64,000 nucleotides of DNA from an uncultured Pedosphaera sp. (GTDB taxonomy: Bacteria; Verrucomicrobiota; Verrucomicrobiia; Limisphaerales; AAA164-E04). The number at the start of each line of letters is the position of its first letter. Within the stretch, counting starts at the first letter, position 1. The position numbers and the translations under genes were made by a program. The stretch spans positions 1,234,567 through 1,298,566 of the forward strand of contig OZ243981.1 of NCBI GenBank assembly GCA_965214825.1. The letters run 5' to 3'. A model generated the notes under the pieces. That model ran no database searches and was not told the DNA's origin. It worked only from the letters and a program-made list of their open reading frames with translations. Positions 8,347-63,336 of the stretch are shown in pieces.

Positions 8347-9345
8347 TCACAGCTTCAAGCGATAAAACAACAAAGGAGCCGCCAGCGACACCAGCGCCCC
8401 GGTTACCAAGCCATGCAAATAATCCGCCAAAAGCGCCGCCGCCAAAGGCCAATCCGCCATGCCTTCCCCCCGCCACCAATGCCACCCCGTAAAGCCGTAA
8501 GGAGCAAGCAACGCCCCTCCCAGCAAAAAACGCAGTGCCCGTTCCCGCCAATCACGGGCATTGCGATCCCGCTTCAACACCACTAAAATTCGATACCCGC
8601 CAAAAAAACCAAACCCCATCCCAGCCAGCAAAAACGAAGAATGCAAACGGAACGGACGGATGGGGCCGTCCTCTGGCCGCTTCTCCAAAGCCATGGAAAC
8701 CCACTCCGCCGGCAACTCGAAATCAGCAACCCACCAACGCATCCCCGCCGCCGCCGCACATATGCTGACAGAACAAAAAAACAACGCCAGCAACTGCCTC
8801 CCCGGCGCCAACGCCAAAAAACGCGCTTTCATCCGCGCTTCCAGCCAAGAGGAAAACCGCAAAAACGCCAGCCCCAAACCGATGCCCGTCACCACCTGAG
8901 CCATCGAATGAACACCCAAATAAACCCGAGAAACCCCAACTCCCAAAAAAATCCCCCCGCACAAAACCCACAACCACCGCCGATTGGCAGAACCCAGCCG
9001 GCACAAAAGCTGCCACTGCCGCGCCAATTCCCCCCACACCGCCGCCGCCGTCAACGCATGTCCCGACGGCATCCCGAAGCCGTCCGACTTGGCAAGCCCC
9101 CGGACTTCCGGCTCCACCCAATACGGGCGGGGCATATGAAACGCCAGCTTCAAAACCCCCGCCAGCCAGGAACACGCCAAATTCGCCAACCAAACCCGGC
9201 TCATCGCTCCATAATCCCAACACCAATACAACCCGGCCAACAGCACATTCAAACCCAGCGAAGGCCCAAAATCGCTCCACCCCCGGAACAACCAATCCAG
9301 CGAAGCGCCGCTCTCCTGCAGCCAAATCGCAAACTCCGTTTCCAT
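8347..9345 (-). CDS. PAP2-family membrane phosphatase
   Basis: Acid-phosphatase motifs 'KLAFHMPRP', 'PSGHA' and 'SRVYLGVHSMAQV' within a multi-TM protein. Confidence 0.8.
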   Translation of the reverse strand: METEFAIWLQESGASLDWLFRGWSDFGPSLGLNVLLAGLYWCWDYGAMSRVWLANLACSWLAGVLKLAFHMPRPYWVEPEVRGLAKSDGFGMPSGHALTAAAVWGELARQWQLLCRLGSANRRWLWVLCGGIFLGVGVSRVYLGVHSMAQVVTGIGLGLAFLRFSSWLEARMKARFLALAPGRQLLALFFCSVSICAAAAGMRWWVADFELPAEWVSMALEKRPEDGPIRPFRLHSSFLLAGMGFGFFGGYRILVVLKRDRNARDWRERALRFLLGGALLAPYGFTGWHWWRGEGMADWPLAAALLADYLHGLVTGALVSLAAPLLFYRLKL

Positions 9346-9522: not shown

Positions 9523-10356
9523 ATGAAAGTAATCATCGATAGCCCGCTCAACGGCTCAACGGCTCAACGGCTCAACAAGGGGTTTACGCTCATTGAACTT
9601 TTGGTCGTCATCGCGATTATTGCGATTTTGGCAGGCATGCTACTCCCTGCCTTATCCAAGGCCAAAGCCAAGGCACAAGAAGTCACGTGCATGAACAACC
9701 TGAAACAGTTGGGCATCGCCTTTGCCATGTATCTCAGCGACTACGAGGACACCTTCCCCGGAGTGGCCTCGCGCGGCGCCTACAACCCGCAACGCGAGGA
9801 TTGGATTTTCTGGAACCTGAACCGCGGTGGCGCCAACGGCATGACCAAGGAGTTCATCAACGACCCCCGCAACAGCGCCATCGCTCCCTACATCGGCAGC
9901 TTCACCACCAACCTCTTTCGCTGCGCCTCTGACAAGGACTGGGAAAAACGGCGGGAAGCGCGAAGGAGTCAAGGAGATGCCAACATCTATTCCTACTCCA
10001 TGGTGAGCTACGTTCCGGGCGGCAAGAATCACGGCCCCGGTTCCATTCTAGATCCCCCGCAAGTCCGCCCTTTCAAATATACCAGCATCAAAATGCCGAC
10101 GCAGAAAATGGTCATCGTCGATGAAAACGGCGATCCGAATAACGGCATCCCCTTCATTGACGACGGCCGCTTCACACCCAACAACTGGCTCGCCGCCCGG
10201 CACCGCATCCCCCGCGGCCAAAAACCAAACAATGAAACGGATTACAAGGAACGCGGCCGGGGCAACGTATTGCTGGCAGATTGGCACGTCGAATCTTACT
10301 CCCCCGGCCAAGCCAAAGAACTCAAACACTACGACACGCAATGGACGGGAAATTAG
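9523..10356 (+). CDS. Prepilin-type N-terminal cleavage/methylation domain protein (pseudopilin-like)
   Basis: '[34 protein letters not shown]' is the class III signal/N-methylation motif. ATG at 9523. Confidence 0.85.
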
Positions 10357-10447
10357 CGCCGGCCTGAGCCTCCCCTTGATAAAAGCCCGGTTTGCCTGGC
10401 TGGGTTTTGGGGTTGCCCATTTCGCGCCCTCCCTTTAGCCTCCCCAT

Positions 10448-11413
10448 ATGATTCGCCGAGCATGGATTCTGTTACTGGTTGCCGCCTGCGCCTTGGCGGG
10501 ACTCTCGTCCGCCGGGGCAGAGCCCGATTGGCAAGGCGTCCGAATTTTTCCTGAAAAGGGCAAACTGCGCATCGAAATCAACGGGGCGTTTTTCTCTGAC
10601 TACATTTACGAAGACGTGTCGCGGCCCTTTCTATACCCGGTCATCGGTCCCGCCCGTTTGCCGGTAACGCGCAACTGGCCCATGAGCTTTCAGGAAGGCG
10701 AGGCGAAGGACCATCCGCACCATCGTTCGCTCTGGTATGCCCACGGCGAAATCAACGGACACGACTTCTGGTCTGAATCGAGCCGCGCCGGCACGACCCG
10801 ACACGTTTTCTTCAAAGAAATCGCCTCCGGCCCGGACTTCGGGCGCATCGTTTCCTTCAATCAGCTCGTCGCCAAAAACGGCGCCGTCATCGGTGCCGAC
10901 ACGCGGGAAATCATCATCCACAATCGCCCCGATTCCGAGCGAATCATCGACTTCAACATCACCATTCACGCCACCCGCGGCGATCTTATCCTCGGCGACA
11001 CCAAAGAAGGCTCGATGGCCATTCGTCTAGCGCCCACCATGCGGCTGAAGGGCGCCGTGGCCCAAGGGCGCATCGTCAACAGCGAAGGCATCCAAGACGG
11101 CGGCACTTGGGGCAAACGCGCCAAATGGGTCGATTACTCCGGCCCCGTCCAAGGCAAAACCGTCGGCGTCGCCATCTTCGATCATCCTGACAATCCCCGC
11201 CATCCTACCTGGTGGCACGTCCGCGACTACGGCCTCTTCGCCGCTAACCCCTTCGGCATCCACAACTTCGAGCGGAAGAAGAAAGGCCTCGGCGATTATC
11301 CCGTGGCCGCCGGTTCAAGCGCCGCCTGGAAATACCGGTTCTTCATGCACCTCGGCGATTCTCAAAGCGCCGACGTCGAGTCCCGATACACCGAATACAC
11401 CCGTACCCGATGA
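10448..11413 (+). CDS. Secreted PmoA-like / DUF6807-type protein
   Basis: Signal peptide 'LLLVAACALAGLSSAGA'. 'RPFLYPVIGP' and 'DHPHHRSLWYAHGEINGHDFW' match my recollection of this family. Confidence 0.6.
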   Translation: MIRRAWILLLVAACALAGLSSAGAEPDWQGVRIFPEKGKLRIEINGAFFSDYIYEDVSRPFLYPVIGPARLPVTRNWPMSFQEGEAKDHPHHRSLWYAHGEINGHDFWSESSRAGTTRHVFFKEIASGPDFGRIVSFNQLVAKNGAVIGADTREIIIHNRPDSERIIDFNITIHATRGDLILGDTKEGSMAIRLAPTMRLKGAVAQGRIVNSEGIQDGGTWGKRAKWVDYSGPVQGKTVGVAIFDHPDNPRHPTWWHVRDYGLFAANPFGIHNFERKKKGLGDYPVAAGSSAAWKYRFFMHLGDSQSADVESRYTEYTRTR

Positions 11414-49511: not shown

Positions 49512-49804
49512 GTTGTTTTGTTGCCGGCGGCAAGGCCGGATGAAACTGTTGCAGAATCTAAAATGAAGGGACAGACTGCTGTTGCGGAAGCCGTGCGGCA
49601 AGAGGAATCCCGCAAATGGCGCCCGCGGCCGCGCCGCCACAGAAAATTGTTTTTTTGGCGCATTGCGTCTGGATTTTTGCGTGGAAACGTTGTAGGAAGA
49701 AGGCGGAGACTAAAGGCTGGAGGGGAAGGGAGAGTTGTCGGGCGGTTCCGTTTGCGGAGCTTTTTGAAGAACAGCGGTGGTTTTATGGGCGAAGAGGTTC
49801 AGTT

Positions 49805-52297
49805 ATGAGCGAAGATGCTTTCAATAATTTTACGCCTCGGGCGCAGCAGGTGTTGGCGCTGGCGAGGAAAGAGGCGGACCGATTCAATCACACATATGTG
49901 GGGACGGAACACTTGCTGCTCGGATTGATCAAGCTCGGGCAGGGAGTCGCGGTGAATGTCCTCCAGAAGATGGGGTTGGAGCTCGAGGCCGTCCGCTCGG
50001 AAGTCGAAAAACATGTGCCCAGCGGGCCGGATCAAAAAGTCGTCGGCACTATCCCATACACGCCTCGGGTCAAAAAAGTTCTGAACCTGGCGTCCAAGGA
50101 AGCCAGACAACTGGCGCACACATATGTGGGAACGGAACACATCCTGTTGGGACTTTTGCGCGAAGGCGACGGCGTGGCGGCGCGAGTGTTGAAAACGTTG
50201 GACATTGACATCGAGCAGACGCGCCAGGAAATTTTGAAAGAGCTCGATCCGAACTTTCAAGAAGGGGATGAGTTTGCTGGGGCGGAGATGGTGGAAAAGA
50301 CCGGCGACAAAAAGAACGATGTCAAAACGCCGGCCTTGCGGGCCTTTGGCCGGGATTTGACGGAGATCGCCCGCAAAGAGGAGATGGACCCCGTCATCGG
50401 ACGCAAAGACGAAATCGAGCGCGTCATCCAAATTTTGTGCCGGCGGACGAAGAACAACCCGGTGCTTTTGGGAGAGGCGGGCGTGGGCAAGACCGCCATT
50501 GTCGAAGGCTTGGCCCAAGAAATTGCCCGCGGCAACGTGCCGGAAATTTTGCGAGACAAACGGGTCGTCACTCTGGACCTCGCCCTGATGGTGGCGGGCA
50601 CAAAATACCGCGGCCAGTTCGAAGAGCGAATCAAAGCTGTGATGGACGAAATCCGGCGCTCCAAAAATATCATCCTCTTCATCGACGAACTCCACACTAT
50701 CGTCGGCGCCGGCTCGGCCGAAGGCACCATGGACGCCTCCAACATTATCAAGCCGGCGCTCAGCCGGGGCGAAATGCAATGCGTCGGCGCCACCACCTTG
50801 GACGAATACCGCAAATACATCGAGCGCGACGCGGCCCTTGAACGGCGCTTTCAATCGATCAAAGTGGAAGCCCCCTCCATCGAAGACGCCGTGCTCATCC
50901 TCAAAGGCGTGCGCTCCAAGTACGAAGAACACCACAAAATCTCCCTCACCGATGCCGCCCTTGACGCCGCCGTGAAACTCTCTGACCGTTACATCACCGG
51001 GCGTTACCTCCCCGACAAAGCCATCGATGTCATGGACGAAGCCGGCGCCGGCGCCCGCATCAAATCCCTGACCCGCCCGCCGGATGTCAAAAGTTTGGAA
51101 AGCGAGATCGGCAAAATCAAATCCAAAAAAGAAAAAGCGATCAAAGAACAGGATTTCGAACTCGCCGCTTCCATGAGAGACCAGGAAAAACAGGCGAAAG
51201 AAAAACTCGAAACCATCTTGAACACCTGGAAAGCCACCCAGGAAGCGCAGCGCATAGTGGTTGACGAGGACGACATCCTGAGTGTCGTCGCCAAGTGGAC
51301 GGGCATCCCGTTGAAACGCATGGAACAAGGGGAGGCACAACGTCTGCTTGACATGGAGGCGGAACTCTCCCGAACCGTCGTGGGGCAGAAAGAGGCCGTC
51401 TCGTCCCTGTGCAAGGCGCTGCGCCGCTCCCGCGCTGATTTGAAAGACCCTTGCCGGCCGATCGGCGCCTTCACTCTGCTGGGCCCCACCGGAGTCGGCA
51501 AAACCCTTCTCGCCAAAACAATCGCCGTCAACATGTTCGGCAATCAAAAATCCCTCATCCATCTCGACATGGGCGAATACATGGAGAAGTTCACCGTCTC
51601 GCGCCTGATTGGATCGCCGCCGGGCTATGTCGGCTACGAAGAAGGCGGCCAGCTCACCGAACAAGTCCGCCGGCAACCCTATTCCGTTGTGCTGTTCGAC
51701 GAAATCGAAAAAGCGCACCCCGACGTCACCAACATGCTCCTGCAAATACTCGAAGAAGGTAAGTTGACAGACAACCTCGGACGGACGGTAGACTTCCGCA
51801 ACACAATCGTCCTCATGACCTCGAATGTCGGCGCCAAGCTGGCTGCAAACAACGAAATCATCGGCTTCACTCAGGGCGGCGAGGAAACGGATTACAACGT
51901 CATGCGGAGCCGCATCCTCGACGAGGCAAAGCGCATCTTCAAACCCGAATTCTTAAATCGTTTGGATGACTTGATCGTGTTCCGCTCGCTGAACAAGGCC
52001 AATTTGATCGACATCTTGACCCTGGAAGTCGAGAAAGTCCTGGAGCGGCTCCGCAAGCGGGAGATGGAATTGTTGCTGGACGACAGCGCCAAAAACTTCT
52101 TGGTCGAAAAAGGATACGATCCCAGCTACGGCGCTAGACCCATGCGCCGCGCCGTCGAGCGTTACCTGGAAGACCCCCTCGCCGAAGAAATCCTAAAAGG
52201 GAACTTGAGTGGCAACGTTCCCATCCGGGTAGTTGCCGATGGAGACCATCTGTCCTTCGTCCAGACAACTGCTGCCGGCGAAACTGTCTCCGGCTAA
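49805..52297 (+). CDS. clpC: ATP-dependent Clp protease ATP-binding subunit ClpC
   Basis: Duplicated Clp-N repeats (FTPRAQQVL..., YTPRVKKVL...), two AAA+ modules ('[15 protein letters not shown]' and '[13 protein letters not shown]') and the UVR-like linker '[12 protein letters not shown]'. ATG at 49805. Confidence 0.92.
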
Positions 52298-52320: not shown

Positions 52321-53370
52321 TCAATCCGCAATCGAAAACCGGTGAATCGTGGTCTGGGCGTATTCTTGTCCCGGACGCAAAATCGTTGATGGAAACTGCG
52401 GATGATTTGGAGAATCCGGGAAATGCTGACATTCCAAACAGAACCCGCTGTGCGTTCGGTAGGGCGTGCCTGATTTTCCGGTGATGGAACCATCGAGGGA
52501 ATTGCCGGTGTAAAATTGAATTGCCGGCTCGGTGGTAAGGATGTCCAGCCGGCGCCCGGATGCCGGATGAATCACCGTGGCTGCCAGATCCAACACACCG
52601 AATTCCGATTTGTTCAGGACGAAATTGTGATCGTATCCGGGAGGGTTGCCGCCGACATTGTTCATGTCCGCGCCGATGGTTTTCGGCTGGCGAAAGTCCA
52701 GCGGCGTCCCTGCCACGGATCGAATCTCGCCGGTGGGGATCAGCCGTTCATCGGTCGGGGTGTAATGGCCGGCACGGATGGCCAGAACATGATCGCCGAT
52801 AAAACCGCCGTCTTCGCCTCCGAGATGCCAATACGCATGATTGGTGAGGTTCAGAGGAGTGGGTTGATCGCTGAAGGCGCGGTAATCCATTCGCAGTTCG
52901 TTGGCCTCGGTGAGCGAATAGACAAGTTCCGTTTGCACTTCCCCTGGATAGCCTTCTTCGCCGTCCGAGCTGGTATAGCGCAATGTGAGGCCGCTGGTCG
53001 ACGCCGTCTCGAAGGGGACGGCGTCCCAAAGCTGCTTGCTGAAGCCCGCAATGCCGCCGTGCAGATGATGGGGGCCGTGATTGGCGGCGAGCGTGTGGCG
53101 CCGTCCGTTGAGGTGGAATTGGCCGTTTGCAAGTCGGTTGGCGTAACGGCCGATGACGACGCCGAAACTTGGAGCATTCTCCAAGTAGCCCGCGAAATCG
53201 CCGAAACCCAAAGTAACATCGGCCAAACGGCCGTTTCGGTCCGGCACATGCGCCTCAATCACTGCCGCGCCGAAATTGGTGATTTTGACCGTCAGACCGT
53301 TGGCATTCCGCAGCGTGTAGAGATTTGCCCGCCCGCCGGATTTGATATTTCCCCATGCCGTGATTTCCAT
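52321..53370 (-). CDS. galM: Aldose 1-epimerase (galactose mutarotase)
   Basis: 'GRYANRLANGQF', 'NHGPHHLHGG', 'LTNHAYW', 'YDHNFVL' and 'GFCLECQHFPD'. The start was set at ATG 53370. Confidence 0.8.
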   Translation of the reverse strand: MEITAWGNIKSGGRANLYTLRNANGLTVKITNFGAAVIEAHVPDRNGRLADVTLGFGDFAGYLENAPSFGVVIGRYANRLANGQFHLNGRRHTLAANHGPHHLHGGIAGFSKQLWDAVPFETASTSGLTLRYTSSDGEEGYPGEVQTELVYSLTEANELRMDYRAFSDQPTPLNLTNHAYWHLGGEDGGFIGDHVLAIRAGHYTPTDERLIPTGEIRSVAGTPLDFRQPKTIGADMNNVGGNPPGYDHNFVLNKSEFGVLDLAATVIHPASGRRLDILTTEPAIQFYTGNSLDGSITGKSGTPYRTHSGFCLECQHFPDSPNHPQFPSTILRPGQEYAQTTIHRFSIAD

Positions 53371-53446
53371 CAAACAATCTCTCGCAGAATGAACTACCCC
53401 TCCCGCAATGTCAACCGAAGGCACAGGTTCCGCCCGGCTGGTGAAG

Positions 53447-54097
53447 TTATGCGGAAAATGTTTGCGCACGGACAAACCCATCTTCTAAGCGAAAATGACA
53501 GTCGCCCAGCCGTCGAGCTTCCTGCCGGCTGTGGGTGATGTGCAGGACGGTCACACGGGTTTGCCGGTGAATCTCCTCCAGCAGCGCGCACATCTCCGCG
53601 TGCAAATCTTCATCCAACGCACTGAGCGGTTCGTCCAAAAGAAGAACAGCAGGCTTGCTCGCCAAAGCTCTGCCAACGGCCACCCGCTGAGCTTCCCCTC
53701 CGCTGAGGCCGTCGGGCCGGCGATCCAACAGCCGGTCCACGCCTGTAAGAACAGCCAACTCCTCCACCCGGGCGGCAATCAACGGCGCTGGCAACCGACG
53801 AATCACCAAAGAAAACGCCAATTGATCGCGAACACAAAGCATGGGAAAAAGCGCGCGGTCTTGAGGCACATAACCCACGCCCCGCTCCGCCGGCTTCCGC
53901 TCAGTAACATCCCGACCCGACAATCGAATCCGGCCGGCCTCAATCGGGCGCAACCCGCAAATCGCTTCCAGCAATGTCGTCTTGCCGCAACCGCTCCGGC
54001 CCATGAGAACAGCATATTGCCCGGACTCCACCCGAAAATCGAACCCCTCAAGACAAAACGCCCCCTGCTGGATTTTGAGCTTCTGCACTTCAATCAT
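53447..54097 (-). CDS. ABC transporter ATP-binding protein (ModC-like)
   Basis: 'GRSGCGKTTLL', 'LSGGEAQRVAVGRAL' and 'LLLDEPLSALD'. The start overlaps the permease stop (ATGA). Confidence 0.8.
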   Translation of the reverse strand: MIEVQKLKIQQGAFCLEGFDFRVESGQYAVLMGRSGCGKTTLLEAICGLRPIEAGRIRLSGRDVTERKPAERGVGYVPQDRALFPMLCVRDQLAFSLVIRRLPAPLIAARVEELAVLTGVDRLLDRRPDGLSGGEAQRVAVGRALASKPAVLLLDEPLSALDEDLHAEMCALLEEIHRQTRVTVLHITHSRQEARRLGDCHFRLEDGFVRAQTFSA

Positions 54098-54999
54098 ATA
54101 TTTAACCGCTGCCGCCCCGCCAAACGAGCAATTCCCAACGCCACCGCTGCTGCCGCAACCATAATCAGAGAAACAGCAAGCATCCCCTTCAAATTGCCTG
54201 CCTGAAGCTCCAAATAAACTGAAGTCGAAAGAACTTCCGTGCGCAACCGCGTAGAGCCGGCAAAAACCAAAATCGGACCAAACTCCCCTAAAGAACGCGC
54301 CCACGCCAAAGTGCCAGCCGCCCAAAGCCCGCCCTTGGCCTGCGGCAAAACAACCGCCCAAAACGCCTGCCGCCGGCTGCAACCCAAAGTCATCGCCACC
54401 TCTTCAAACCGGATGGGAATCTGATCAAACGCAACACGCATCATTCGAACCGCAAAAGCAGCTGCCACCGTAAATTGGGCGATAATAACCGCAGGAACCT
54501 CGAAAACAACCGCCGAACTAAACCAAGCGAAAGGTGGAAGATTGAACAAAACCAACAAACTAACCCCAACAACAAGCGGCGGCAAAACAATCGGAACATC
54601 CAAAACAACATCAATAAAACCCTTCCCTCGAAATTGAAAACGAGACATCAAATAACCAATGGGCACAGACACCCAAAGAGACAACACAGCCGAGATGCTA
54701 CAACTCGCCAAACTCAAAAGAATCGAAAACCGAATTTCCTTGCTGCCAAACGCCGCCAGCAAAGACTCGCGATCCGTATAAATAACATCGGCCAAAAGCA
54801 TAAGCGCAATCACCGCAATATAAGCGCCCCCAAGCACAACCAAACAAGCGAGAAAAGGTTTGTCAGAAGGGACGCTTGGAACCTGCGCCAACGCCTCGTC
54901 AAAATCGGAAGCCCTCGCCCCTCTTTTCCCCGAAGGAGGCGCCCCAGTAGCGCCCGCGTTCTCGGATACACTAGATAGAGACTGGCGCGGCAGTTGCAC
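54094..54999 (-). CDS. ABC transporter permease (ModB/CysT-like); start uncertain
   Basis: Multi-TM protein with an EAA-like loop 'LGCSRRQAFWAVVLPQAKGG'. The first start not overlapping the res gene is GTG 54999. An ATG at 55071 would overlap res by 68 nt. Confidence 0.7.
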   Translation of the reverse strand: MQLPRQSLSSVSENAGATGAPPSGKRGARASDFDEALAQVPSVPSDKPFLACLVVLGGAYIAVIALMLLADVIYTDRESLLAAFGSKEIRFSILLSLASCSISAVLSLWVSVPIGYLMSRFQFRGKGFIDVVLDVPIVLPPLVVGVSLLVLFNLPPFAWFSSAVVFEVPAVIIAQFTVAAAFAVRMMRVAFDQIPIRFEEVAMTLGCSRRQAFWAVVLPQAKGGLWAAGTLAWARSLGEFGPILVFAGSTRLRTEVLSTSVYLELQAGNLKGMLAVSLIMVAAAAVALGIARLAGRQRLNI

Positions 55000-55003
55000 G
55001 AAC

Positions 55004-57973
55004 TCAGAGAGATTCAAAGATGCGTTCAGGCTGGTCAATATAAAAACGCCGATATTTCTCCGGCACGGCATTGCTCTTTTTATTGAACATCCAAAGCGCG
55101 ACGCGGACCGTGAATTCGCGGTATCCAAATTGGGCCAGCTCACCGTTCCCTTTTTCAAACAGGTTTTGATAACCGTCTATTTTGTGGTAGGCAGAGGTGT
55201 GCTGTGTTCCTTTGGGATCAACAAAAACAATACGATATTCATTCCCTCGACACATCCAGAAAACAAAATCGGGCAAGAAACGGCGGCATTCGTTTTTCTC
55301 GGGGTCGGAGTAGGGAATATGAATGTTGTCCCAAGATTCGTCTATCTTGCTAAACATCCAGGCATCCCATGGCACAGTATTTTTCCCAAGCCATTCTTCC
55401 AGCGCATTAAGAAAGTTGATCTCACTTGCAACCTTGATAATGTGCTGAATGTAATTTGCTTTCTCGTCTCCCAGTATCACAGGGAAATAATAGTGTTTGA
55501 GCACTTTCCTTATTTTCAGATCCATAAAAGATTTTTCGGCTCTTTCCGCCAACTTCGCATATCTCTTGCCAAACACTTCCTGCGTTATTTTTTCCTCTGC
55601 AAGTTGCCATGCTAACTCAACCATTTCCCCATTCGATGCTTTGCCTGCTTTTACCTGATCAATCTTAGTTTGCAGTTCACAGACATATTCCGAACGAACG
55701 CGAATCTCGCGGAAATGAACAATGTCTTCGTCTGCTATTTCACGAACGCCGTCTGAGACTTTTTCAATTTTCATCGTGTGGGCCAGAAGACGGTTTTGCA
55801 GAAACGGCAGCAGCGCATAGTCTTTCCCCTGTTTGATTTGTATTCCATTCTTAATCTTTTGTATTCCATTCTCAATCTTAAGTAACCCGCGCAGCGCGTT
55901 AATCTGAAACATGGCAAGCTCATCCCGAACGATATACACTGAATCAGACGTTCTTTTAAACCACGATTGCAACCTTTCCAAGGTTTCCTCGCTCATCCAG
56001 AATGGAGACGGCAAACTCGTCGGCTCTTCCCTGTATTCGGGCACTAACAGCGGCATATCTTTATTATTGATTTTAGATAACGGCGCCTTTTCAAAACCCT
56101 CCAGCCTTTCAAAGACAGCGCCCTTCTCCGCTTCCAACCCCTTCAGCACGGATTTGACGGCACTGCGATTGGTTGCAAACAGAAACAACGTTTCCGGCGG
56201 CTGCACCTTGTCGTGATAGTCTTGGATGCGCTGCTTCTCTTTGCTGTCGGCGAGGTAGGCAAAACGGCGGCGCTGATTCGGCAACGTTTCAATCCGCACG
56301 CCGCGCCCGACGGACTGCACTATAAACTTTTTGGCATCACTGCCGCCGATGTTGATGAAGTTGATCACATTGGGACGGTTGGAGTCCCAGCTTTCAAAAA
56401 ACGACCGGGAACCCATAAGGACCGTTATAGAGCTTTGTTCCAATTCGTCAAAAAACGACTTTTCCTGCAACGCGGTTGTTTCCTCAAAGCCGGCAAGAAG
56501 ATTGTTGCGCCACTTGGAAGTGTCGCCTATGCGTATCAAGGCAAACGGAGAATCTGCATTTTTCAGTTGAAACGCCAATTCCTTGTTGTCTCCACTGCGA
56601 ATAAGCTGTAACGCTCCTTTTTTACGGCTGAGAAAAACCGCCTCTCGTAAATCGGCCGTTGTCATTTTCTTAATGGGAGTTTCATCGGTTTCGATAATTC
56701 CCCCGCTGTCTTCTCTAAAAAGAAGCCTCGCATTTCTCCAATCATCAATCAGTTCAGTTTTTGAGTCTCTAAAAAGCGCGGTATCAATTGCTCCCGTGGC
56801 AACTTCACGCAAGGTTTGGAAAAACGCCCACAGATCGTTTCTTTCATTTTCAACGTCAGTATTTACAGAATTGACCAAGGTCAGCATGAGTGGCAAGTGA
56901 TACAAATCTCCGATTTGCGTCCCTTCCCGTAGCTCTTTTACTCGTAACGAAACATAGCCAAATGTGATTAACGATTTCATGACAATTTTTCTTCTTTCTT
57001 CATGGCTCATTTCTTTCCCCCTGTGGCGGAAGGCATCGTATTCCTGCTCGTTCAGAAAAATGTTTTTGCCATGCCCATTGATAACAAACTCCTCCAGATT
57101 GTATTTTTTGACCGTCGTTATAATGTCTTCTTTATCCGTAAAAGTAGCGGAAAAGTTAAACAAAAACCCCTCCCGCGCCATCACCGCGTAATACGCCTGC
57201 CGCTTGGAGTCCTCTTTACCGCCCTTATGCGCCTCGTCAAGCAACACGTACCATTTTCCGCAGTTTTCATAAGTGCGGTAGTTGGTCAGCGTGTCTTTCT
57301 GTACATCGGAAATGTTATCACTGCGGTGGTAGTAAACCGTCGCCATATCGCCAATTCTCGCCTGACGGCTGCGGTGCATTTCACGCAGCGGAACCAAATC
57401 TATATAAAGCCCCGTCTGATTGAATTCCTCCACGGTACGGCGGATTTGACCTAACAGATGCTCGCTGGGCGCAAGGATGAGGATGTTATGCGGCGGAATT
57501 TCCCGATGGCGTATCAAGTGGTGCAAGTACTCTATCAGCTTGACCATCACCAGTGTCTTGCCGCTGCCGGTCGCCATCCAGAAGCACATGCGGTTGATCA
57601 GGTTATGATAGGAAATGGTATCATCAAAAGGCGTTATATAGTCCGAAAGGATACGAAATACCGGATTCTCATCGCCATTTCTTCGGCTATTCCGGCTCTC
57701 ATATTGATTTACATTGGCAATTCCGTGGGTGTCATACAGGTCGAAGAAATACCGTTTACGTTCGTTGTTTGTCGCCTGTGGCTCACCGATGCTCCAGTCG
57801 TGTTCCTTGCCATAATACAGAAACAGCGCCCGCGCTGCTTTTTGCAAAGCGTCGGTTTGGTAATCGTACAGCGTCTTTGTGGTGGAAAAATTACCTATAT
57901 CCGGGACACGCCAAGTTTCGGGCAGATCGCCGTAGTTCAGGGATTGAGCAATGGATTCAAGTGATAGATGCAT
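55004..57973 (-). CDS. res: Type III restriction Res-like SF2 helicase with a C-terminal PD-(D/E)xK nuclease-like domain
   Basis: Motif I 'WMATGSGKTLVM', motif II 'LLDEAHKGG', motif III 'FSATF' and motif VI 'QSVGRGVRIE'. The C-terminus has 'FLPDFVFW...YRIVFVDPKGT'. Confidence 0.8.
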   Translation of the reverse strand: MHLSLESIAQSLNYGDLPETWRVPDIGNFSTTKTLYDYQTDALQKAARALFLYYGKEHDWSIGEPQATNNERKRYFFDLYDTHGIANVNQYESRNSRRNGDENPVFRILSDYITPFDDTISYHNLINRMCFWMATGSGKTLVMVKLIEYLHHLIRHREIPPHNILILAPSEHLLGQIRRTVEEFNQTGLYIDLVPLREMHRSRQARIGDMATVYYHRSDNISDVQKDTLTNYRTYENCGKWYVLLDEAHKGGKEDSKRQAYYAVMAREGFLFNFSATFTDKEDIITTVKKYNLEEFVINGHGKNIFLNEQEYDAFRHRGKEMSHEERRKIVMKSLITFGYVSLRVKELREGTQIGDLYHLPLMLTLVNSVNTDVENERNDLWAFFQTLREVATGAIDTALFRDSKTELIDDWRNARLLFREDSGGIIETDETPIKKMTTADLREAVFLSRKKGALQLIRSGDNKELAFQLKNADSPFALIRIGDTSKWRNNLLAGFEETTALQEKSFFDELEQSSITVLMGSRSFFESWDSNRPNVINFINIGGSDAKKFIVQSVGRGVRIETLPNQRRRFAYLADSKEKQRIQDYHDKVQPPETLFLFATNRSAVKSVLKGLEAEKGAVFERLEGFEKAPLSKINNKDMPLLVPEYREEPTSLPSPFWMSEETLERLQSWFKRTSDSVYIVRDELAMFQINALRGLLKIENGIQKIKNGIQIKQGKDYALLPFLQNRLLAHTMKIEKVSDGVREIADEDIVHFREIRVRSEYVCELQTKIDQVKAGKASNGEMVELAWQLAEEKITQEVFGKRYAKLAERAEKSFMDLKIRKVLKHYYFPVILGDEKANYIQHIIKVASEINFLNALEEWLGKNTVPWDAWMFSKIDESWDNIHIPYSDPEKNECRRFLPDFVFWMCRGNEYRIVFVDPKGTQHTSAYHKIDGYQNLFEKGNGELAQFGYREFTVRVALWMFNKKSNAVPEKYRRFYIDQPERIFESL

Positions 57974-57988
57974 GGATTAGCTATAGAC

Positions 57989-58489
57989 TCAATGGTTATT
58001 TCTTATGGTAATAGCTTCCTCTACAGCGCCGGCTAAATTCTTCTTAATCCAATCGTACCGCTCCTGACTGTTGTGGCCAGCAGGATCATAACATTTGACG
58101 ACCGACAAGAGTTTCTCACCGAAATTTCCACAAGAAATATCGAAAGGGTTTTTACCCTTAGAAGAAATACTTTCATACTGGTCTTTTAGTCCGTGTATGT
58201 ATATTCCGACCACGCCCATACCTTCATTTCGTGACTTTCTTATTTCATAATTGATCCATTTTCTATTTGCTGTATTGCTGCCAACGAGGACGACGGTGCA
58301 TGACCTGTACTTCATTTGGTTATCTATCCATTTTTTAATCGCAGTATCACCACCTTTTTTAACTGCTTCCCATTCGTTATCAGTTGCTGGCCTATTACCT
58401 TCAACAACACCCATGTTGCGTACTTGCGAGACTCGCCAACTATCTTGATCGTAGTGAAAACTGTAAAAGACTCGTCTTTTTGTCGCCAT
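57989..58489 (-). CDS. ThsB-like TIR-domain protein (DUF1863 type)
   Basis: 'RRVFYSFHYDQDSWRVSQVRN', 'TVVLVGSNTANRKWINYEIRKS' and 'GIYIHGLKD...SKGKNPFD' closely follow the Thoeris ThsB pattern as I recall it. Confidence 0.75.
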   Translation of the reverse strand: MATKRRVFYSFHYDQDSWRVSQVRNMGVVEGNRPATDNEWEAVKKGGDTAIKKWIDNQMKYRSCTVVLVGSNTANRKWINYEIRKSRNEGMGVVGIYIHGLKDQYESISSKGKNPFDISCGNFGEKLLSVVKCYDPAGHNSQERYDWIKKNLAGAVEEAITIRNNH

Positions 58490-58543
58490 ATTCGTTTTTC
58501 TATCTCCTCATTCGTTCTGCTCTTACTTTACTTAATTGTAAAT

Positions 58544-58954
58544 TTAAGAATAACAAAAGATCCATCCCAACACAAATAAAGCCTGAATGCCATAAAATAA
58601 GAGCAATGTTACGGAAAACATGGAAGCAAACCAGTTACACTTTGGTTGGCTTTTGTGTTTCATCATATCCATTGCAAAATCCGTGGCTCCTTGCTCTCTA
58701 ATCTCATCGTAACCTTTACGAAACAATCGCTCTTGCCAAAGAAAATAAACGTCCAATACCCAAAACCCAACTACTGGAATGAGAAAAGACAATACGATAT
58801 ATTCGTTTCCGATCCCGCTTCTTGCAGAAAAGATGATTCCAGCAGCCAATATGGTTATGCTCCAACCTTTGATCAAGAAAGAGTCATGCCCCAGACGGTT
58901 AATAACCCCCTGAATCATTTCCAAGTGCTTCACGATTTGTTCTTTATTATGCAT
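58544..58954 (-). CDS. Small 3-TM membrane protein of unknown function
   Basis: 136 aa with an amphipathic N-terminus 'IVKHLEMIQGVINRLGHDSFLIKGW'. Hydrophobic segments are 'SITILAAGIIFSA', 'YIVLSFLIPVVGFWVLDVYFLW' and 'VTLLLFYGIQALFVLGWIF', with a ~40-aa charged loop. Confidence 0.6.
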   Translation of the reverse strand: MHNKEQIVKHLEMIQGVINRLGHDSFLIKGWSITILAAGIIFSARSGIGNEYIVLSFLIPVVGFWVLDVYFLWQERLFRKGYDEIREQGATDFAMDMMKHKSQPKCNWFASMFSVTLLLFYGIQALFVLGWIFCYS

Positions 58955-58966
58955 TGCAACACCTCT

Positions 58967-59632
58967 TTAAGCTTTCACCGTCTTTGTGATTTTGTAATCA
59001 TCTATCTTCTCTCTTATATTCTCTGCTATTTGAATATACTTTTCTTTGTCATTTATAAAATCCTGCCATGTAACCGAGTAAATATAGCTAGGATCACCTG
59101 TATAAACAGGATTCTTTGGGTGATTTCTACAATTGCTAAAGGTAGGTTCCTTTATGTTAAACATATTGTCTCGCAATATCTGAAAGAGAGTGTCGGTTTT
59201 TAGTGTTTTACAATGACAGTATGGACAGGAATCTTCCACAAGAAAGTATTGGTAAGAGGAGTTTCTGTCGGGCAGAACGACTGCTAACACTGCATTTGTT
59301 TTGCTAGTACGCCCATCCCGTGTGATTTCCTTGAAGGAATAAGAAACCTCCCATGGAATCCACTGATTGCCTTCGTTAATACTCGTGTCTTTCATATTGG
59401 GCGAAATTAAGACAATAGTGATACTGCTGTCATATATTTTGTCCTTCAGATGAGTTTTTATCGTCTCGTCTTCAAACTCTTCTAAATCTTCATCACCTTC
59501 TCCTTTATAAATCTCATCTCCCTCAAATAAATCAATTAGCTTATCAACATAATCCCTGGCTGTGCTTTCTCCATTCAATGCTTCCACATTTCTATCACTG
59601 TGCTTATAAGAAACAAATATTTTTCTAGCCAT
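58967..59632 (-). CDS. Second, divergent ThsB-like TIR-domain protein
   Basis: '[11 protein letters not shown]', '[12 protein letters not shown]', '[11 protein letters not shown]' and '[10 protein letters not shown]' (DUF1863/TIR-like pattern), with an extra Cys-containing C-terminal region 'CPYCHC'. Confidence 0.65.
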
Positions 59633-59647
59633 TTTAGTATTCTGCTT

Positions 59648-62416
59648 TTACTCCCCCCACCACAGATACGATTTGATAAGTGAGATGAAGTGCCGTTTTT
59701 CTTCTTCGGTCATGGTTGCCGGGTCGGTTTTCTCGGTGGTGCCGTCGGCGAAGGTTACGCTGTCGGCGGTGCGGCGACGGATCGGTTTGCCGAGCGCATT
59801 GGACAGCGTCTCGGCAATGTCGATGTCCTGGTAGTCCCGGTAGAGGTCGTGGAGATTGATTTTCAGTTTGCCGTTTTTCAGCGGTTTGACCGCGCCCGCG
59901 AGTTTGTCGTCGCCGAAGAAAACATACTGCTCAAAGGGCGATTTTGTGCTGTCCAGCTCCAGTGAAGTGACTCGCCGTCCGCTATCATAGCGGGCTTCTT
60001 TGAGCGTCTCTTCGTACTGCTCCAGTTTGTAGTATTTGAGGCAATGGCTGACGCCTTCACGGGAGACAGGTTTGCCGTTTTTCCAGTCTTTGGAATAGAC
60101 CACTTTTTTGATGCGCGGTAGAAGAACGGTGTCGAAGTAGTCTCCCATTTCGATCATCAAGTATTTGCGATTGCCGCCGTCTTCGCGATTGAGATTGATA
60201 ACGGCGTGAGCAGTGGTGCCGGAGCCGGCGAAGTAGTCTACTGCTACTGCGTTTCTTTTGTTGCAGCCGGATGTTGTTAAACAATCTTCGACTAATGCTA
60301 CGGATTTCGGAAAATTGAATAAACTCTCTCCAAAGAGATCTTTTAGAACTTTTGCCCCGTGGTTGGATGATGCGTATTTGTTATCATCCCACCAAGTCTT
60401 GGGCATCGCACTCTCGTCCATCCGAATGCGGAAATCTATACTTATACTCCCATTCTTACCTCGGCGAATGCGATACTCGTCTGGTTCAGATTGAACGCGT
60501 TCCCATCCGCGATGCCAGTTTTTCTCGATTTCACCTCTGATGGGCCAAAGAACGACTTCATCTGAATTGGGTTTTTCCTGAACCCGATACTCGCGGTTAT
60601 CTTCACGCCACTCCAGTTCAGGAATTCGGATGGTGTCGTCCTCTTTGACATAAATTGGATAAAACATCTTCGGTGCATCTTCTCTTTTGTCATTTGAACC
60701 ATGCCGAATCAAATTGTTCCAGGCATATCTTCCCTGACTGTCCGCAAATGGATAACGCGCACGTTCCTTGTCGGTCTTTGGTAGGCTGGACGGTACAGCG
60801 TCCTTATTACCAAAGAACAAGGCGTATTCGTGAGATGGCGAAAACTGTCCCGTGGATTTTCTTCCAGCAGGATTCGTCCGCACAGGAACCACGCCCAATT
60901 TTCGGTCAAAAACTCTTTGCAATAGGTCAAATAAACGCCAAGACTCTTCATCATCAATAGCACAACAAATAATTCCTTCGCTGCCCAGAAACGCTTTTGA
61001 TATTGTTAGTCGATTTTCTACCAATGAAAGCCATGACGAATCTTTATAATCGTTTCTATACAAAATGGCTGAAGAATCGGTGTTATACGGTGGATCGATA
61101 TAAATACATTTAACCTTCCCCCTGTACCTCTCCCGCAAAGTATTCAATGCCTGCCAGTTCTCGCTGTGCACCAGTTCGCCGTCCAGCGCTTCGTCCAGAT
61201 TCCCTAACGCAGCGAGAATCTCCAATTTCATATCTTTGAAATATCCGGTGTCCAGCGGCAGAAACTTATAGTCGCCGTTTGCGCCGCCGTTGGTATCGGC
61301 CAGGTTTTGCTGCCCGGCGCCGAGCGCATCCATTGAAAATTGGTCATCCACCATGCCGAGCTCGCGCCACTCCTTGATTTGCGTCCGCGCGCCTTTGTGT
61401 TGGCGCACCTTTTGTAGCGTCTCGGCGTTCAATTTATCCAGCGTAACGACATAGTTGACATTGCGGACGAATTTCGGCTTTTCCCAGGCGCGGCGCAGCT
61501 CATCCTCGAACTGGGCTATGAAGTGGATGATGTCGTAGGCGGTTTCCTTGAGCGCCTGCAACTGTTTGATGCGCTTTTGTTCGAAGACGGTCTCTTCCTG
61601 AAACAGGTATTGGTACATCCACAGATCAAACTGCTCGCGCAGAAAGCCTTTGGCGTCCTTATTGATAAAGTAATCAACTTCCGTCTGACGGCGGAACACG
61701 CCGAGCGCTTTTTGGAGTTGGTCATCGGTCAGTGAGATGCCGCCCCGGCGGGCCTCTTTGAGGATGGCGGCGGTCTTCGTTTTCGTACCGCCGCGCGCGT
61801 AGGCGACTTTCAGATGGATTACCCGCCCTTCGGCCGTTTTTTTAACTTCGTCAAAGTCAAACACGAATTCACGCCGTTCGTTGTTCTGCTTGTGCTCCAC
61901 CTCGGAAGCGTCAAAATAGAAACGCCTTGTTTTTTGCGGTTTGCCTTCCTCGTTCAGCTCGACCGGCATGGAGCGCACTAACGCATCCGATTTGACATAA
62001 TAGAGCATCTGCGTTTTCCACGACAACGCGACGTCCTGACCGTCTGCATAGACCTGCTGATAGGTTTTGGAGAAGGCCGGCAGGTGGCGGAAGTAGATGG
62101 AGCCGCTTTCGCAGAAGTAACGCCTGAAGAAGGTGTACAGCTTGTCGAACAGCTCCTCACGGAAGGCGGTTTGCGGTTTGGCGCGTTGATCAATCGCGGC
62201 CATCAGTTGCGGCTTGATGGATTGGAAGTAGTGCTGTTTGATCCACATCAGGTTGACGAAGCCGGAGTGTTTACCGTCCACCTCGGCACCGGTGAACAGC
62301 GCTTCCAGCTCGTCCAAAAAACGCTTTTCCTTTCTGCCGCCGTTCATCTTTCCGCCTTGCGATGTGCGGCGGTTGTGTTTTGGCCTGATAGCTTGCTTGT
62401 GCGACACTGTTTGCAT
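59648..62416 (-). CDS. mod: Type III Mod-like DNA methyltransferase (beta-class N6A/N4C)
   Basis: Motif IV 'CIYIDPPYNT' precedes motif I 'VAVDYFAGSGTTAHAV'. At 922 aa it has a large N-terminal region. An alternative ATG lies at 62347. Confidence 0.8.
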   Translation of the reverse strand: MQTVSHKQAIRPKHNRRTSQGGKMNGGRKEKRFLDELEALFTGAEVDGKHSGFVNLMWIKQHYFQSIKPQLMAAIDQRAKPQTAFREELFDKLYTFFRRYFCESGSIYFRHLPAFSKTYQQVYADGQDVALSWKTQMLYYVKSDALVRSMPVELNEEGKPQKTRRFYFDASEVEHKQNNERREFVFDFDEVKKTAEGRVIHLKVAYARGGTKTKTAAILKEARRGGISLTDDQLQKALGVFRRQTEVDYFINKDAKGFLREQFDLWMYQYLFQEETVFEQKRIKQLQALKETAYDIIHFIAQFEDELRRAWEKPKFVRNVNYVVTLDKLNAETLQKVRQHKGARTQIKEWRELGMVDDQFSMDALGAGQQNLADTNGGANGDYKFLPLDTGYFKDMKLEILAALGNLDEALDGELVHSENWQALNTLRERYRGKVKCIYIDPPYNTDSSAILYRNDYKDSSWLSLVENRLTISKAFLGSEGIICCAIDDEESWRLFDLLQRVFDRKLGVVPVRTNPAGRKSTGQFSPSHEYALFFGNKDAVPSSLPKTDKERARYPFADSQGRYAWNNLIRHGSNDKREDAPKMFYPIYVKEDDTIRIPELEWREDNREYRVQEKPNSDEVVLWPIRGEIEKNWHRGWERVQSEPDEYRIRRGKNGSISIDFRIRMDESAMPKTWWDDNKYASSNHGAKVLKDLFGESLFNFPKSVALVEDCLTTSGCNKRNAVAVDYFAGSGTTAHAVINLNREDGGNRKYLMIEMGDYFDTVLLPRIKKVVYSKDWKNGKPVSREGVSHCLKYYKLEQYEETLKEARYDSGRRVTSLELDSTKSPFEQYVFFGDDKLAGAVKPLKNGKLKINLHDLYRDYQDIDIAETLSNALGKPIRRRTADSVTFADGTTEKTDPATMTEEEKRHFISLIKSYLWWGE

Positions 62417-62466: not shown

Positions 62467-63336
62467 TCAGGGTTTGGCGGGAAAGGTGTCGAAGTGGAAT
62501 TTTTGGAAGAGGAGTTTACCTTTTTTCGACGTGGCAAGGTAGCGAGCAAAGCGCCGGGCGGCTTCTGCTTTTTGAGTGTGGGCAGTGATGTGGGCGGCGA
62601 TGACGGCGATTCCGTCGGCGAGTTCAGGGCATTCGACAATACGAAGTCCGAATTGTTTTGCTGTGGCGTCCCATATGAAAGCGGCGCGAATGTGCTTTGA
62701 AGTTTTCACGGCGTTGGCAGCTTCTGGCACTCGCAGGAAGGCGGCTTTTTTGTTTTGCAAGACGGGTTGCCAGAGGCCGTGCTGTTTGAGGGCTGTTTTG
62801 ATTCGCCGTCCGGCGCCGGCTTGTTGGTTGCAGAGGGCGTAGGGATGGGCTTGGTCCAGCAGGTCTCGGACGGATTGAATGCGAAGAGGGGAATCCGGTT
62901 TGAGCGCCAAAACAATTCGGAACCGGGCAAGAGGAATGGATTCTTGGGTTAGCCCTTTGCTTTGAGCGCGGTTGCCGAAGAAGGGATCCGCAGGGATATA
63001 GAGGTCGCAGCGCGAAAGGCCGGTTTTTTTTTCCAGAGCGATTTTGTTTTCAAGTTCGCCGCTGGAGCCGTAGTTCAAGCGAATGACAACACCGCGTTCT
63101 TTTTGGTAGAGTCTGGCGGCGGCTTCAACCGGCTTTCTTATACCCGCCGCGCAATAGATTACCAAGCTGAATTGAGCGGCGCCAAGTTTAGCGGTCATCC
63201 GGTGCAAGAAAGTAATGAGCGCCAAGACAAGGAAAGCCGAGACCAGCGCCAAGATGATACCGTTCAAGGCAAACCGGCGGCGAAGATAGTTTTTTGCGGT
63301 CATATAAAGCGCAGCTTGCAGTCTTATTTCGGGCAA
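62467..63336 (-). CDS. ModA-like (molybdate/tungstate-type) periplasmic substrate-binding protein with an N-terminal anchor
   Basis: TM anchor 'GIILALVSAFLVLALITF', then 'LVIYCAAGIRKPVEAAARLY...LNYGSSGEL...DLYIPAD...AAFIWDATA', typical of type-II PBPs of the ModA group. Confidence 0.65.
   Translation of the reverse strand: MPEIRLQAALYMTAKNYLRRRFALNGIILALVSAFLVLALITFLHRMTAKLGAAQFSLVIYCAAGIRKPVEAAARLYQKERGVVIRLNYGSSGELENKIALEKKTGLSRCDLYIPADPFFGNRAQSKGLTQESIPLARFRIVLALKPDSPLRIQSVRDLLDQAHPYALCNQQAGAGRRIKTALKQHGLWQPVLQNKKAAFLRVPEAANAVKTSKHIRAAFIWDATAKQFGLRIVECPELADGIAVIAAHITAHTQKAEAARRFARYLATSKKGKLLFQKFHFDTFPAKP

What the first reader, a model, noticed from the sequence alone, without database searches (positions are those of the whole stretch)
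58544..58954. Two ThsB-like TIR genes without any ThsA; a 136-aa 3-TM protein sits where an effector would be
Seen: no SIR2, SLOG, Macro, nuclease or protease ORF lies in the island besides Mod and Res. The only extra gene is a 136-aa protein with an amphipathic N-terminal helix, three hydrophobic segments and a ~40-aa charged loop, flanked on both sides by TIR genes. Both TIR proteins keep a Glu in the position I recall as catalytic ('WINYEI' and 'IPWEVSY'). Established: TIR defence systems signal to a dedicated effector, and the known membrane-type ThsA carries a Macro sensor domain that cannot fit in 136 aa. Inference: this may be a minimal membrane-disrupting effector with a new ligand-sensing mode, or the TIRs may signal to Res.
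Basis: partly seen in the sequence, partly recalled or inferred. Interest (0 to 1): 0.8.

Follow-up and report, generated by a model that had tools for sequence, protein, structure and literature searches.

The report
Type V Thoeris inside a restriction operon
The small three-helix membrane protein between two TIR genes is very probably the membrane-damaging effector (ThsF) of a type V Thoeris anti-phage system, a kind of system that was described and tested in late 2025, so the locus is real and well read but ordinary.

Summary
Five tightly spaced minus-strand genes form the island: Mod, a 221-aa TIR, the 136-aa three-helix membrane protein, a 166-aa TIR, and Res. Both TIRs keep the catalytic Glu.

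The membrane protein is not an orphan. It matches PADLOC's untested candidate PDC-M50A at E=1e-37, and the 166-aa TIR matches PDC-M50B. The family has more than 4,700 clusters at 50% identity.

The cassette fits type V Thoeris (ThsB plus ThsF, labelled 'DUF2270', three helices) of Yirmiya et al. 2025:
- Both window TIRs are 56-58% identical to TIRs that paper lists with a DUF2270 effector.
- Relatives of its two validated type V TIRs, up to 75% identical, lie next to homologs of the window protein.
- One homolog, 37% identical to the window protein, passes Pfam's DUF2270 cutoff. The window protein itself does not hit that model.

In 80 related loci, 48 have an adjacent TIR gene. No relative of the window's Res was found in any, so signalling to Res is unsupported.

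The likely mechanism is that phage-triggered ThsB makes a cyclic ADP-ribose, probably 3'cADPR, which opens a ThsF oligomer in the membrane. This is a new member of a known kind. The leftover oddities are its position inside a type III RM operon and the many TIR-less copies elsewhere.

The parts
58544..58954 (-). thsF-like gene: a 136-aa three-helix membrane protein, the predicted Thoeris type V effector (PADLOC PDC-M50A family)
   Evidence: It matches PADLOC PDLC04686 (PDC-M50A) at E=1.2e-37 and has no Pfam or NCBIfam hit of its own. Three hydrophobic segments and an all-helical AF2 model are seen. It is 37% identical (E=7e-30) to P0206, which passes the Pfam PF10028 DUF2270 cutoff with 25.2 bits against 25. 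Homologs lie next to relatives of validated type V Thoeris TIRs.
57989..58489 (-). thsB (short form): a 166-aa ThsB-type TIR protein, predicted phage sensor and signal synthase
   Evidence: Matches are Pfam ThsB_TIR at 2e-28, PADLOC ThsB PDLC00433 at 1e-69, and PDC-M50B at 3.4e-64. It is 58% identical to IMG 2509429074, listed as 'DUF2270 - Type V' in Table S1 of Yirmiya et al.. E82 aligns with the catalytic E85 of B. cereus ThsB.
58967..59632 (-). thsB (long form): a 221-aa ThsB-type TIR protein with a C-terminal extension, predicted to be a second sensor and signal synthase
   Evidence: Matches are PADLOC ThsB PDLC00428 at 5.1e-83 and Pfam ThsB_TIR at 3.4e-6. It is 56% identical to IMG 2501732538 ('DUF2270 - Type V'). 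It is 58% identical to a B. cereus plasmid TIR that lies next to a SIR2 gene. E95 sits in the invariant Glu column.
59648..62416 (-). Type III RM methyltransferase (Mod), upstream part of the host operon in which the Thoeris cassette is embedded
   Evidence: Matches are PADLOC MTase_III at 4.3e-192 and Pfam N6_N4_Mtase at 1.2e-21.
55004..57973 (-). Type III RM restriction subunit (Res), downstream part of the host operon
   Evidence: Matches are Pfam ResIII at 1e-15 and DEAD at 1.7e-8, and PADLOC REase_III at 2.9e-21.

Best explanation
The three genes between mod and res form a type V Thoeris anti-phage system with two ThsB sensors and one ThsF-like effector.

**Shown here:**
- Both flanking proteins are ThsB-type TIRs with the catalytic Glu intact.
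- The middle protein is a three-helix membrane protein of a large family.
- That family is linked to ThsB genes and is homologous to proteins that meet the Pfam DUF2270 (ThsF) threshold.

**Inferred from the experiments on type V Thoeris:**
- On infection, one or both ThsB proteins convert NAD+ into a cyclic ADP-ribose isomer, most likely 3'cADPR.
- The signal binds the cytoplasmic face of a ring-shaped ThsF homo-oligomer. The conserved R20, K29, E75, R79 and Y82 lie on this face, at the ends of the helices.
- The ring then opens or disrupts the membrane, and the cell stops growing or dies before the phage completes its cycle.
- Two different ThsB proteins probably widen the range of phages that are sensed.

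The type III RM genes around the cassette are an independent first line of defence. The cassette is embedded there and is probably co-transcribed, but it does not signal to Res.
For: **Family assignment by PADLOC.** PADLOC models PDC-M50A and PDC-M50B hit the membrane protein and the 166-aa TIR at 1.2e-37 and 3.4e-64. Both TIRs hit ThsB models at 1e-69 and 5e-83.

**Match to the published type V list.** The window TIRs are 58% and 56% identical to TIRs labelled 'DUF2270 - Type V' in Table S1 of Yirmiya et al..

**Relatives of validated type V TIRs lie next to homologs of the window membrane protein:**
- L095, B. thuringiensis: TIR 75% identical to the Bacillus sp. 1NLA3E type V TIR, next to a 135-aa protein that scores E=1e-34 against the A1 profile.
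- L093, Priestia plasmid: TIR 67% identical to the same validated TIR.
- L090, Priestia plasmid: TIR 49% identical to the B. thuringiensis DAR 81934 TIR.
- L091, Klebsiella plasmid.

**Link to Pfam DUF2270.** 19 of 109 diverse family members hit PF10028 at E<=10. P0206 passes the curated cutoff and is 37% identical to the window protein at E=7e-30.

**Gene neighbourhood.**
- 48 of 80 loci have a same-strand TIR gene within 300 bp, and 10 have the same TIR-TM-TIR sandwich.
- All four close relatives of the 166-aa TIR that I checked have the small membrane gene directly upstream.

**Published mechanism.** ThsF has three membrane helices and an AF3 homo-heptamer model with positive inter-protomer pockets, and 3'cADPR is toxic to cells carrying the B. 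thuringiensis system.

**Choice of signal.** The 221-aa TIR is 58% identical to a TIR next to a SIR2 gene, which is a type I-like arrangement. In type I Thoeris the signal is 3'cADPR.

**Enzyme integrity.** The catalytic Glu is conserved in both TIRs.
Against: - The window protein itself does not hit Pfam PF10028, even at E<=5. The match of relatives covers only profile positions 23-106 of 184.
- I could not obtain the sequences of the two experimentally validated ThsF proteins. Identity of family rests on their TIR partners and on the paper's cluster labels, which its authors call noisy.
- 32 of 80 related loci have no adjacent TIR gene.
- The signal is not settled even for type V. [quoted passage not shown] 1NLA3E variant, and that is the variant whose TIR relatives pair with this membrane family.
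- No oligomer model could be made with the tools here. The monomer model has only moderate confidence (pLDDT 71).
- Nothing here was tested experimentally.
Confidence: 0.8

Rival explanations
1. The small membrane protein acts without the TIR proteins. It could be a guard or abortive-infection module tied to restriction-modification systems, in the way PrrC is tied to type I RM. On this reading the two TIR genes are a separate module that only happens to be adjacent.
For: 32 of 80 related loci carry the membrane gene with no adjacent TIR. Several of these copies lie directly before HsdR or after an Eco57I-type methylase. 36 of 80 loci have RM parts within 3.5 kb.
Against: An adjacent TIR is still the majority state, at 48 of 80 loci. 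It is also the rule in the reciprocal direction, seen for all four TIR relatives checked. On plasmids the pair occurs as a bare two-gene unit with no RM genes nearby. RM embedding is a general property of many unrelated defence cassettes (Payne et al. 2024).
Confidence: 0.08
2. The TIR proteins are themselves the toxic effectors and deplete NAD+. The membrane protein would then be a sensor, anchor or regulator rather than the killer.
For: [quoted passage not shown] Yirmiya et al. state that this cannot be excluded for unverified configurations.
Against: Both TIRs belong to ThsB subfamilies, not to the CBASS or Pycsar effector TIR type. [quoted passage not shown]
Confidence: 0.06
3. The TIR-made signal activates the type III restriction subunit Res.
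For: The only support is position. The cassette lies between mod and res with 15-nt gaps on both sides.
Against: A profile search with the window Res matched nothing in the 80 loci, and type III Mod matched in only 3. Res shows only helicase-type domains and no known nucleotide-signal sensor domain such as SLOG, Macro or SAVED. The same cassette is found in type I, type IIG, SNF2 and plasmid contexts.
Confidence: 0.02

Closest known systems
Type V Thoeris (ThsB + ThsF/DUF2270), Yirmiya et al. 2025, bioRxiv 10.64898/2025.12.03.692087
   Same: - A ThsB-type TIR lies next to a small three-helix membrane protein with no separate sensor domain.
- The window TIRs are 56-58% identical to TIRs listed with this effector.
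- Homologs of the membrane protein lie next to relatives of both validated type V TIRs.
- Family members reach the PF10028 threshold.
- Consecutive IMG gene numbers in Table S1 suggest that TIR-effector-TIR sandwiches also occur there, for example 2506607000/2506607002 and 2517867516/2517867518.

   Different: - The window protein is short, 136 aa against a 184-position Pfam model, and does not itself hit PF10028.
- Two different ThsB genes flank one effector.
- The cassette is embedded between mod and res of a type III RM system.
- The sequences of the validated ThsF proteins were not available for direct comparison.
PADLOC candidate system PDC-M50 (Payne et al. 2024, bioRxiv 10.1101/2024.01.29.577857)
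   Same: Both gene families match the PDC-M50A and PDC-M50B models strongly. The candidate was found by its embedding in other defence systems, as cassette CAS_00164 with 57 instances.
   Different: PDC-M50 is an untested two-gene candidate with no proposed mechanism. [quoted passage not shown] The window has an extra, different ThsB.
Type II Thoeris (ThsB + transmembrane-Macro effector, signal His-ADPR)
   Same: A TIR-made signal activates a membrane-damaging effector.
   Different: The type II effector senses its ligand with a Macro domain. No Macro domain is present here.
Type VII Thoeris and CBASS SLATT effectors
   Same: These are small helical membrane effectors that are predicted to oligomerise on binding a nucleotide signal.
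   Different: There is no significant SLATT match. Only 1 of 42 family members hits SLATT_fungal, at E=0.19.
Type I Thoeris (ThsB + SIR2-SLOG ThsA)
   Same: The ThsB subfamilies are shared. The 166-aa TIR is 43% identical to the B. cereus MSX-D12 ThsB TIR domain. The 221-aa TIR is 58% identical to a TIR next to a SIR2 gene.
   Different: There is no SIR2 or SLOG protein in the island.

Membership tests
Type V Thoeris (ThsB + ThsF) | A ThsB-type TIR gene lies directly next to the effector gene in one operon | tested here: met
   Two ThsB-type TIR genes flank the 136-aa gene with gaps of 12 and 54 nt, all on the minus strand.
Type V Thoeris (ThsB + ThsF) | The effector is a small protein with three membrane-spanning helices and no other domain | tested here: met
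   There are three hydrophobic segments and an all-helical AF2 model. No Pfam or NCBIfam domain is found.
Type V Thoeris (ThsB + ThsF) | The effector belongs to Pfam PF10028 (DUF2270) | tested here: inconclusive
   The window protein has no PF10028 hit at E<=5. However, 19 of 109 family members hit it at E<=10. P0206 passes the cutoff with 25.2 bits against 25 and is 37% identical to the window protein at E=7e-30.
Type V Thoeris (ThsB + ThsF) | Sequence homology to the experimentally validated ThsF proteins (IMG 2624526260, 2506742001) | not testable with these tools
   Those sequences are not in any collection I could still search. The indirect evidence is that TIRs 49-75% identical to their partner TIRs lie next to homologs of the window protein.
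Type V Thoeris (ThsB + ThsF) | The effector forms a ring-shaped homo-oligomer with positively charged inter-protomer pockets | not testable with these tools
   Only single-chain prediction was available. Conserved R20, K29, R79 and Y82 lie at the predicted cytoplasmic membrane interface.
Type V Thoeris (ThsB + ThsF) | The TIR makes 3'cADPR on infection and the effector is triggered by it | not testable with these tools
   This needs experiments. The catalytic Glu is present in both TIRs.
PADLOC PDC-M50 | Adjacent genes match the PDC-M50A and PDC-M50B models | tested here: met
   PDC-M50A scores 1.2e-37 on the 136-aa protein. PDC-M50B scores 3.4e-64 on the 166-aa TIR.
Type II Thoeris | The effector carries a Macro domain joined to transmembrane helices | tested here: not met
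   No Macro domain is found in any protein of the island.
SLATT effectors (type VII Thoeris, CBASS) | A match to a SLATT family model | tested here: not met
   There is no SLATT hit for the window protein. Only 1 of 42 homologs hits SLATT_fungal, at E=0.19.
Type III restriction-modification (context) | Adjacent Mod (N6/N4 methyltransferase) and Res (ResIII helicase-nuclease) genes | tested here: met
   MTase_III scores 4.3e-192. ResIII scores 1e-15 and REase_III 2.9e-21. The two genes are separated here by the 1.7-kb Thoeris cassette.

The most novel reading that the evidence does not exclude
ThsF-like three-helix proteins may be a portable effector that does not always depend on a neighbouring TIR. 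In 40% of the sampled loci the gene stands alone inside RM systems or next to other candidate partners: an AAA_21 ATPase, or Schlafen/AlbA_2 with a nucleoside 2-deoxyribosyltransferase-like protein. Such copies might respond to signals made in trans or by non-TIR enzymes. In the window, the position between mod and res might reflect functional coupling, with shared transcription so that the abortive layer is expressed together with the restriction layer, rather than mere insertion.
Probability: 0.12. Interest if true: 0.55.

Novelty: new member of a known kind. Interest (0 to 1): 0.25.

Why it matters
The locus adds a clear example of type V Thoeris from an uncultured lineage. It has two different ThsB sensors around one effector, nested inside a type III RM operon.

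It also ties three names to one family: PADLOC's untested candidate PDC-M50, the 'DUF2270' ThsF effector, and a family of several thousand unannotated proteins of about 135 aa. That link is useful for annotation, because neither Pfam nor NCBIfam recognises the window protein.

It does not open a new question about TIR signalling. The idea of a minimal membrane effector without a sensor domain has already been published and tested.

Tried and rejected
- **Pfam and NCBIfam on the window protein.** Nothing meaningful was found. The only hit was PEX14-like at E=0.024, which I take as chance.
- **Foldseek of the AF2 model against PDB.** No match had E<=0.001. The top hits are generic helical bundles.
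- **Domain fusions.** I looked for fusions that might reveal a sensor. The longer family members (P0214 at 362 aa and others) have no recognisable extra domain.
- **Relation to SLATT.** Rejected.
- **The '3TM' effector class of Yirmiya et al.** I considered it, but its rows go with other TIR clusters ('YNLFISHSW...' type), not with the window's TIR families.
- **DUF3278 and 8xMP.** Weak sub-threshold Pfam matches occur in 23 and 10 of 109 members. A literature search found nothing relevant to them.
- **Source genome.** Looking up the source contig through the exact proteins failed, because they are not on record. Cluster look-up gave no names.
- **Promoter and terminator scans of the island.** Results were at or below shuffled expectation.
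- **Repeats at the island ends.** No flanking direct repeats were found.
- **Literature search for 'PDC-M50'.** No paper was found.

Full report
**What is there**

Between 55004 and 62416 the window holds a low-GC island, at 0.38-0.48 against about 0.56 in the flanks. It contains five co-directional minus-strand genes:
- a type III methyltransferase Mod, 59648-62416
- a 221-aa TIR protein, 58967-59632
- the 136-aa protein of the finding, 58544-58954
- a 166-aa TIR protein, 57989-58489
- a type III restriction subunit Res, 55004-57973

The gaps between them are 15, 12, 54 and 15 nt.

Pfam and PADLOC confirm the assignments:

| Protein | Best matches |
|---|---|
| Mod | MTase_III 4e-192 |
| Res | ResIII 1e-15 |
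| 166-aa TIR | ThsB_TIR 2e-28; PADLOC ThsB 1e-69 |
| 221-aa TIR | PADLOC ThsB 5e-83 |

No SIR2, SLOG, Macro, nuclease or protease domain is present.

The 136-aa protein has these features:
- three hydrophobic segments, at about 30-45, 53-72 and 112-136
- an amphipathic N-terminal helix
- a 39-residue charged loop at 73-111 with 7 K/R and 6 D/E
- an all-helical AlphaFold2 model with mean pLDDT 71

Both TIRs keep the Glu that aligns with the catalytic E85 of B. cereus ThsB. It is E82 in the short TIR and E95 in the long one.

**The small protein belongs to a large, already catalogued family**

Pfam and NCBIfam do not recognise it. PADLOC does: it matches PDC-M50A at 1.2e-37, and the 166-aa TIR matches PDC-M50B at 3.4e-64. 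PDC-M50 is one of 145 untested 'phage defence candidates' that Payne et al. [quoted passage not shown] It is cassette CAS_00164, with 57 instances.

A profile of 42 close homologs (A1) finds 4,735 clusters at 50% identity with E<=1e-3. Nearly all are stand-alone proteins of 125-150 aa without informative fusions. The conserved positions cluster in three places:
- the N-terminal helix: H10, L11, Q15, R20, S25, F26, K29, W31
- the second hydrophobic helix (residues 53-72): W65, L67, D68
- the cytoplasmic stretch that follows it: E75, R79, Y82

**It matches type V Thoeris**

Yirmiya et al. (bioRxiv, December 2025) surveyed TIR operons and validated seven new Thoeris types. In type V the effector ThsF is annotated DUF2270 (PF10028). 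It has three membrane helices and is modelled as a homo-heptameric channel with positively charged pockets between protomers. In the B. thuringiensis DAR 81934 system it is triggered by 3'cADPR made by ThsB.

Four lines of evidence tie the window to this type.

1. The window TIRs are 58% and 56% identical to IMG 2509429074 and 2501732538. Both are listed as 'DUF2270 - Type V' in that paper's Table S1.
2. Relatives of the two validated type V TIRs lie directly next to homologs of the window membrane protein:
   - In a B. thuringiensis contig (L095), a 198-aa TIR is 75% identical to the Bacillus sp. 1NLA3E TIR domain. It is followed by a 135-aa protein that scores E=1e-34 against A1.
   - Priestia plasmids show the same arrangement, with TIRs 67% (L093) and 49% (L090) identical to the validated ones.
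   - A Klebsiella plasmid (L091) also shows it.
   - The organism counts of plasmid hits to the B. thuringiensis TIR and to the window membrane protein run almost in parallel: Klebsiella 43 and 42, Escherichia 36 and 36.
3. Of 109 diverse family members, 19 hit PF10028 at E<=10, which makes it the second most frequent Pfam match. P0206 passes the curated cutoff with 25.2 bits against 25, at E=1.4e-5, over profile positions 23-106 of 184. P0206 is 37% identical to the window protein over 131 residues, at E=7e-30.
4. Consecutive IMG gene numbers in Table S1, such as 2506607000/2506607002, 2515616423/2515616425 and 2517867516/2517867518, suggest that TIR-effector-TIR sandwiches like the window's also occur there.

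**Co-occurrence**

In 80 genome loci with close homologs, mostly sponge-associated MAGs (Poribacteria, Binatia, Latescibacterota, Nitrospirales), I searched the ORFs with profiles seeded from 19 TIR sequences of different clusters. The architectures were:

| Architecture | Loci |
|---|---|
| TM-TIR | 27 |
| TIR-TM | 11 |
| TIR-TM-TIR | 10 |
| TM alone | 32 |

So 48 of 80 loci have a same-strand TIR gene within 300 bp.

In the reverse direction, all four close relatives of the 166-aa TIR that I inspected have a Pfam-less gene of 116-140 aa directly upstream. These genes score 1e-28 to 2e-35 against A1.

The contexts vary: between HsdS and later genes of type I RM systems, after an MmeI-type enzyme, after an SNF2 helicase, and on plasmids. 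36 of 80 loci have RM parts within 3.5 kb. A profile search with the window's Res matched nothing in the 80 loci. That argues against TIR-to-Res signalling.

**Most likely mechanism**

*Shown here:* two intact ThsB-type TIR enzymes flank a three-helix membrane protein of the ThsF/DUF2270-related family in one tight operon.

*Inferred from the published type V work:*
- Phage infection triggers ThsB to make a cyclic ADP-ribose isomer.
- The signal binds the cytoplasmic face of a ThsF ring and causes membrane disruption and abortive infection.

I favour 3'cADPR as the signal for three reasons:
- Type V TIRs were shown to make it.
- The 166-aa TIR is 43% identical to the type I B. cereus ThsB TIR domain.
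- The 221-aa TIR is 58% identical to a plasmid TIR next to a SIR2 gene.

The signal remains uncertain. 3'cADPR was not toxic with the Bacillus sp. 1NLA3E variant, and that is the variant whose TIR relatives pair with this membrane family.

**Caveats**

- I could not obtain the validated ThsF sequences.
- The authors themselves call the Table S1 labels noisy.
- The window protein does not itself reach the Pfam model.
- No oligomer could be modelled.
- 40% of the sampled homologs lack an adjacent TIR.

**Verdict**

The locus is a new member of a known kind. That idea was published and tested in 2025, and the gene pair had been a catalogued candidate since 2024.

Two points remain mildly interesting: the position inside a type III RM operon, and the many TIR-less copies in other genomes.

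Noticed in passing
window 53447-55158 and 62467-63336 (flanks of the island 55004-62416): The RM and Thoeris island lies between a modA-like substrate-binding gene on one side and a ModB/WtpB-like permease plus an ABC ATPase on the other, all on the minus strand. It therefore appears to be inserted inside a molybdate/tungstate-type ABC transporter operon. The modA-like match is weak (TIGR01256, 34 bits, below the cutoff). GC drops from about 0.56 to 0.38-0.48. No flanking direct repeats or integrase were seen.
   Followed up: partly
L005, L012, L064 and others among L001-L080: 32 of 80 close homologs of the 136-aa protein have no adjacent TIR gene. Several lie directly in front of HsdR or after an Eco57I-type methylase. 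These may be degenerate cassettes, may use TIRs in trans, or may act without a TIR.
   Followed up: partly
L041, L043, L056, and L039 at 10186-10656: In several loci a nucleoside 2-deoxyribosyltransferase-family protein (PF05014, 8.9e-26 for the L039 representative) lies close to the membrane gene. In L043 and L056 a Schlafen/AlbA_2 protein lies between them. This may be an alternative partner to the TIR.
   Followed up: partly
L013, L018, L019, L026 (Binatia MAGs): An AAA_21/AAA_15 ATPase of 424-482 aa follows the membrane gene. In L019 there is also a TIR upstream. L083-L089 show the same kind of ATPase (395-523 aa) one or two genes after the TIR.
   Followed up: no
L092/L100 (B. cereus plasmid NZ_CP053657.2, 9000-19000): A dense Thoeris island holds two SIR2 genes and three TIR genes. 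One TIR is 58% identical to the window's 221-aa TIR, and another is a relative of the type V B. thuringiensis TIR. No annotated small membrane gene lies next to the latter.
   Followed up: partly
L001 (Candidatus Oxydemutator MAG), around 8001-8399: The closest genome locus, 73% identical, has the same TIR(222)-TM(136)-TIR order downstream of a type III Mod homolog. It differs by an extra 625-aa ORF and a duplicated short TIR, and no Res homolog lies within 8 kb.
   Followed up: no
window 49616-52297 (+) and 52321-53481 (-): The housekeeping genes next to the island look ordinary. One is a ClpC-like AAA+ chaperone of 893 aa, judged by reading the translation only. The other is a galactose-1-epimerase (TIGR02636, 1.6e-96).
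   Followed up: no
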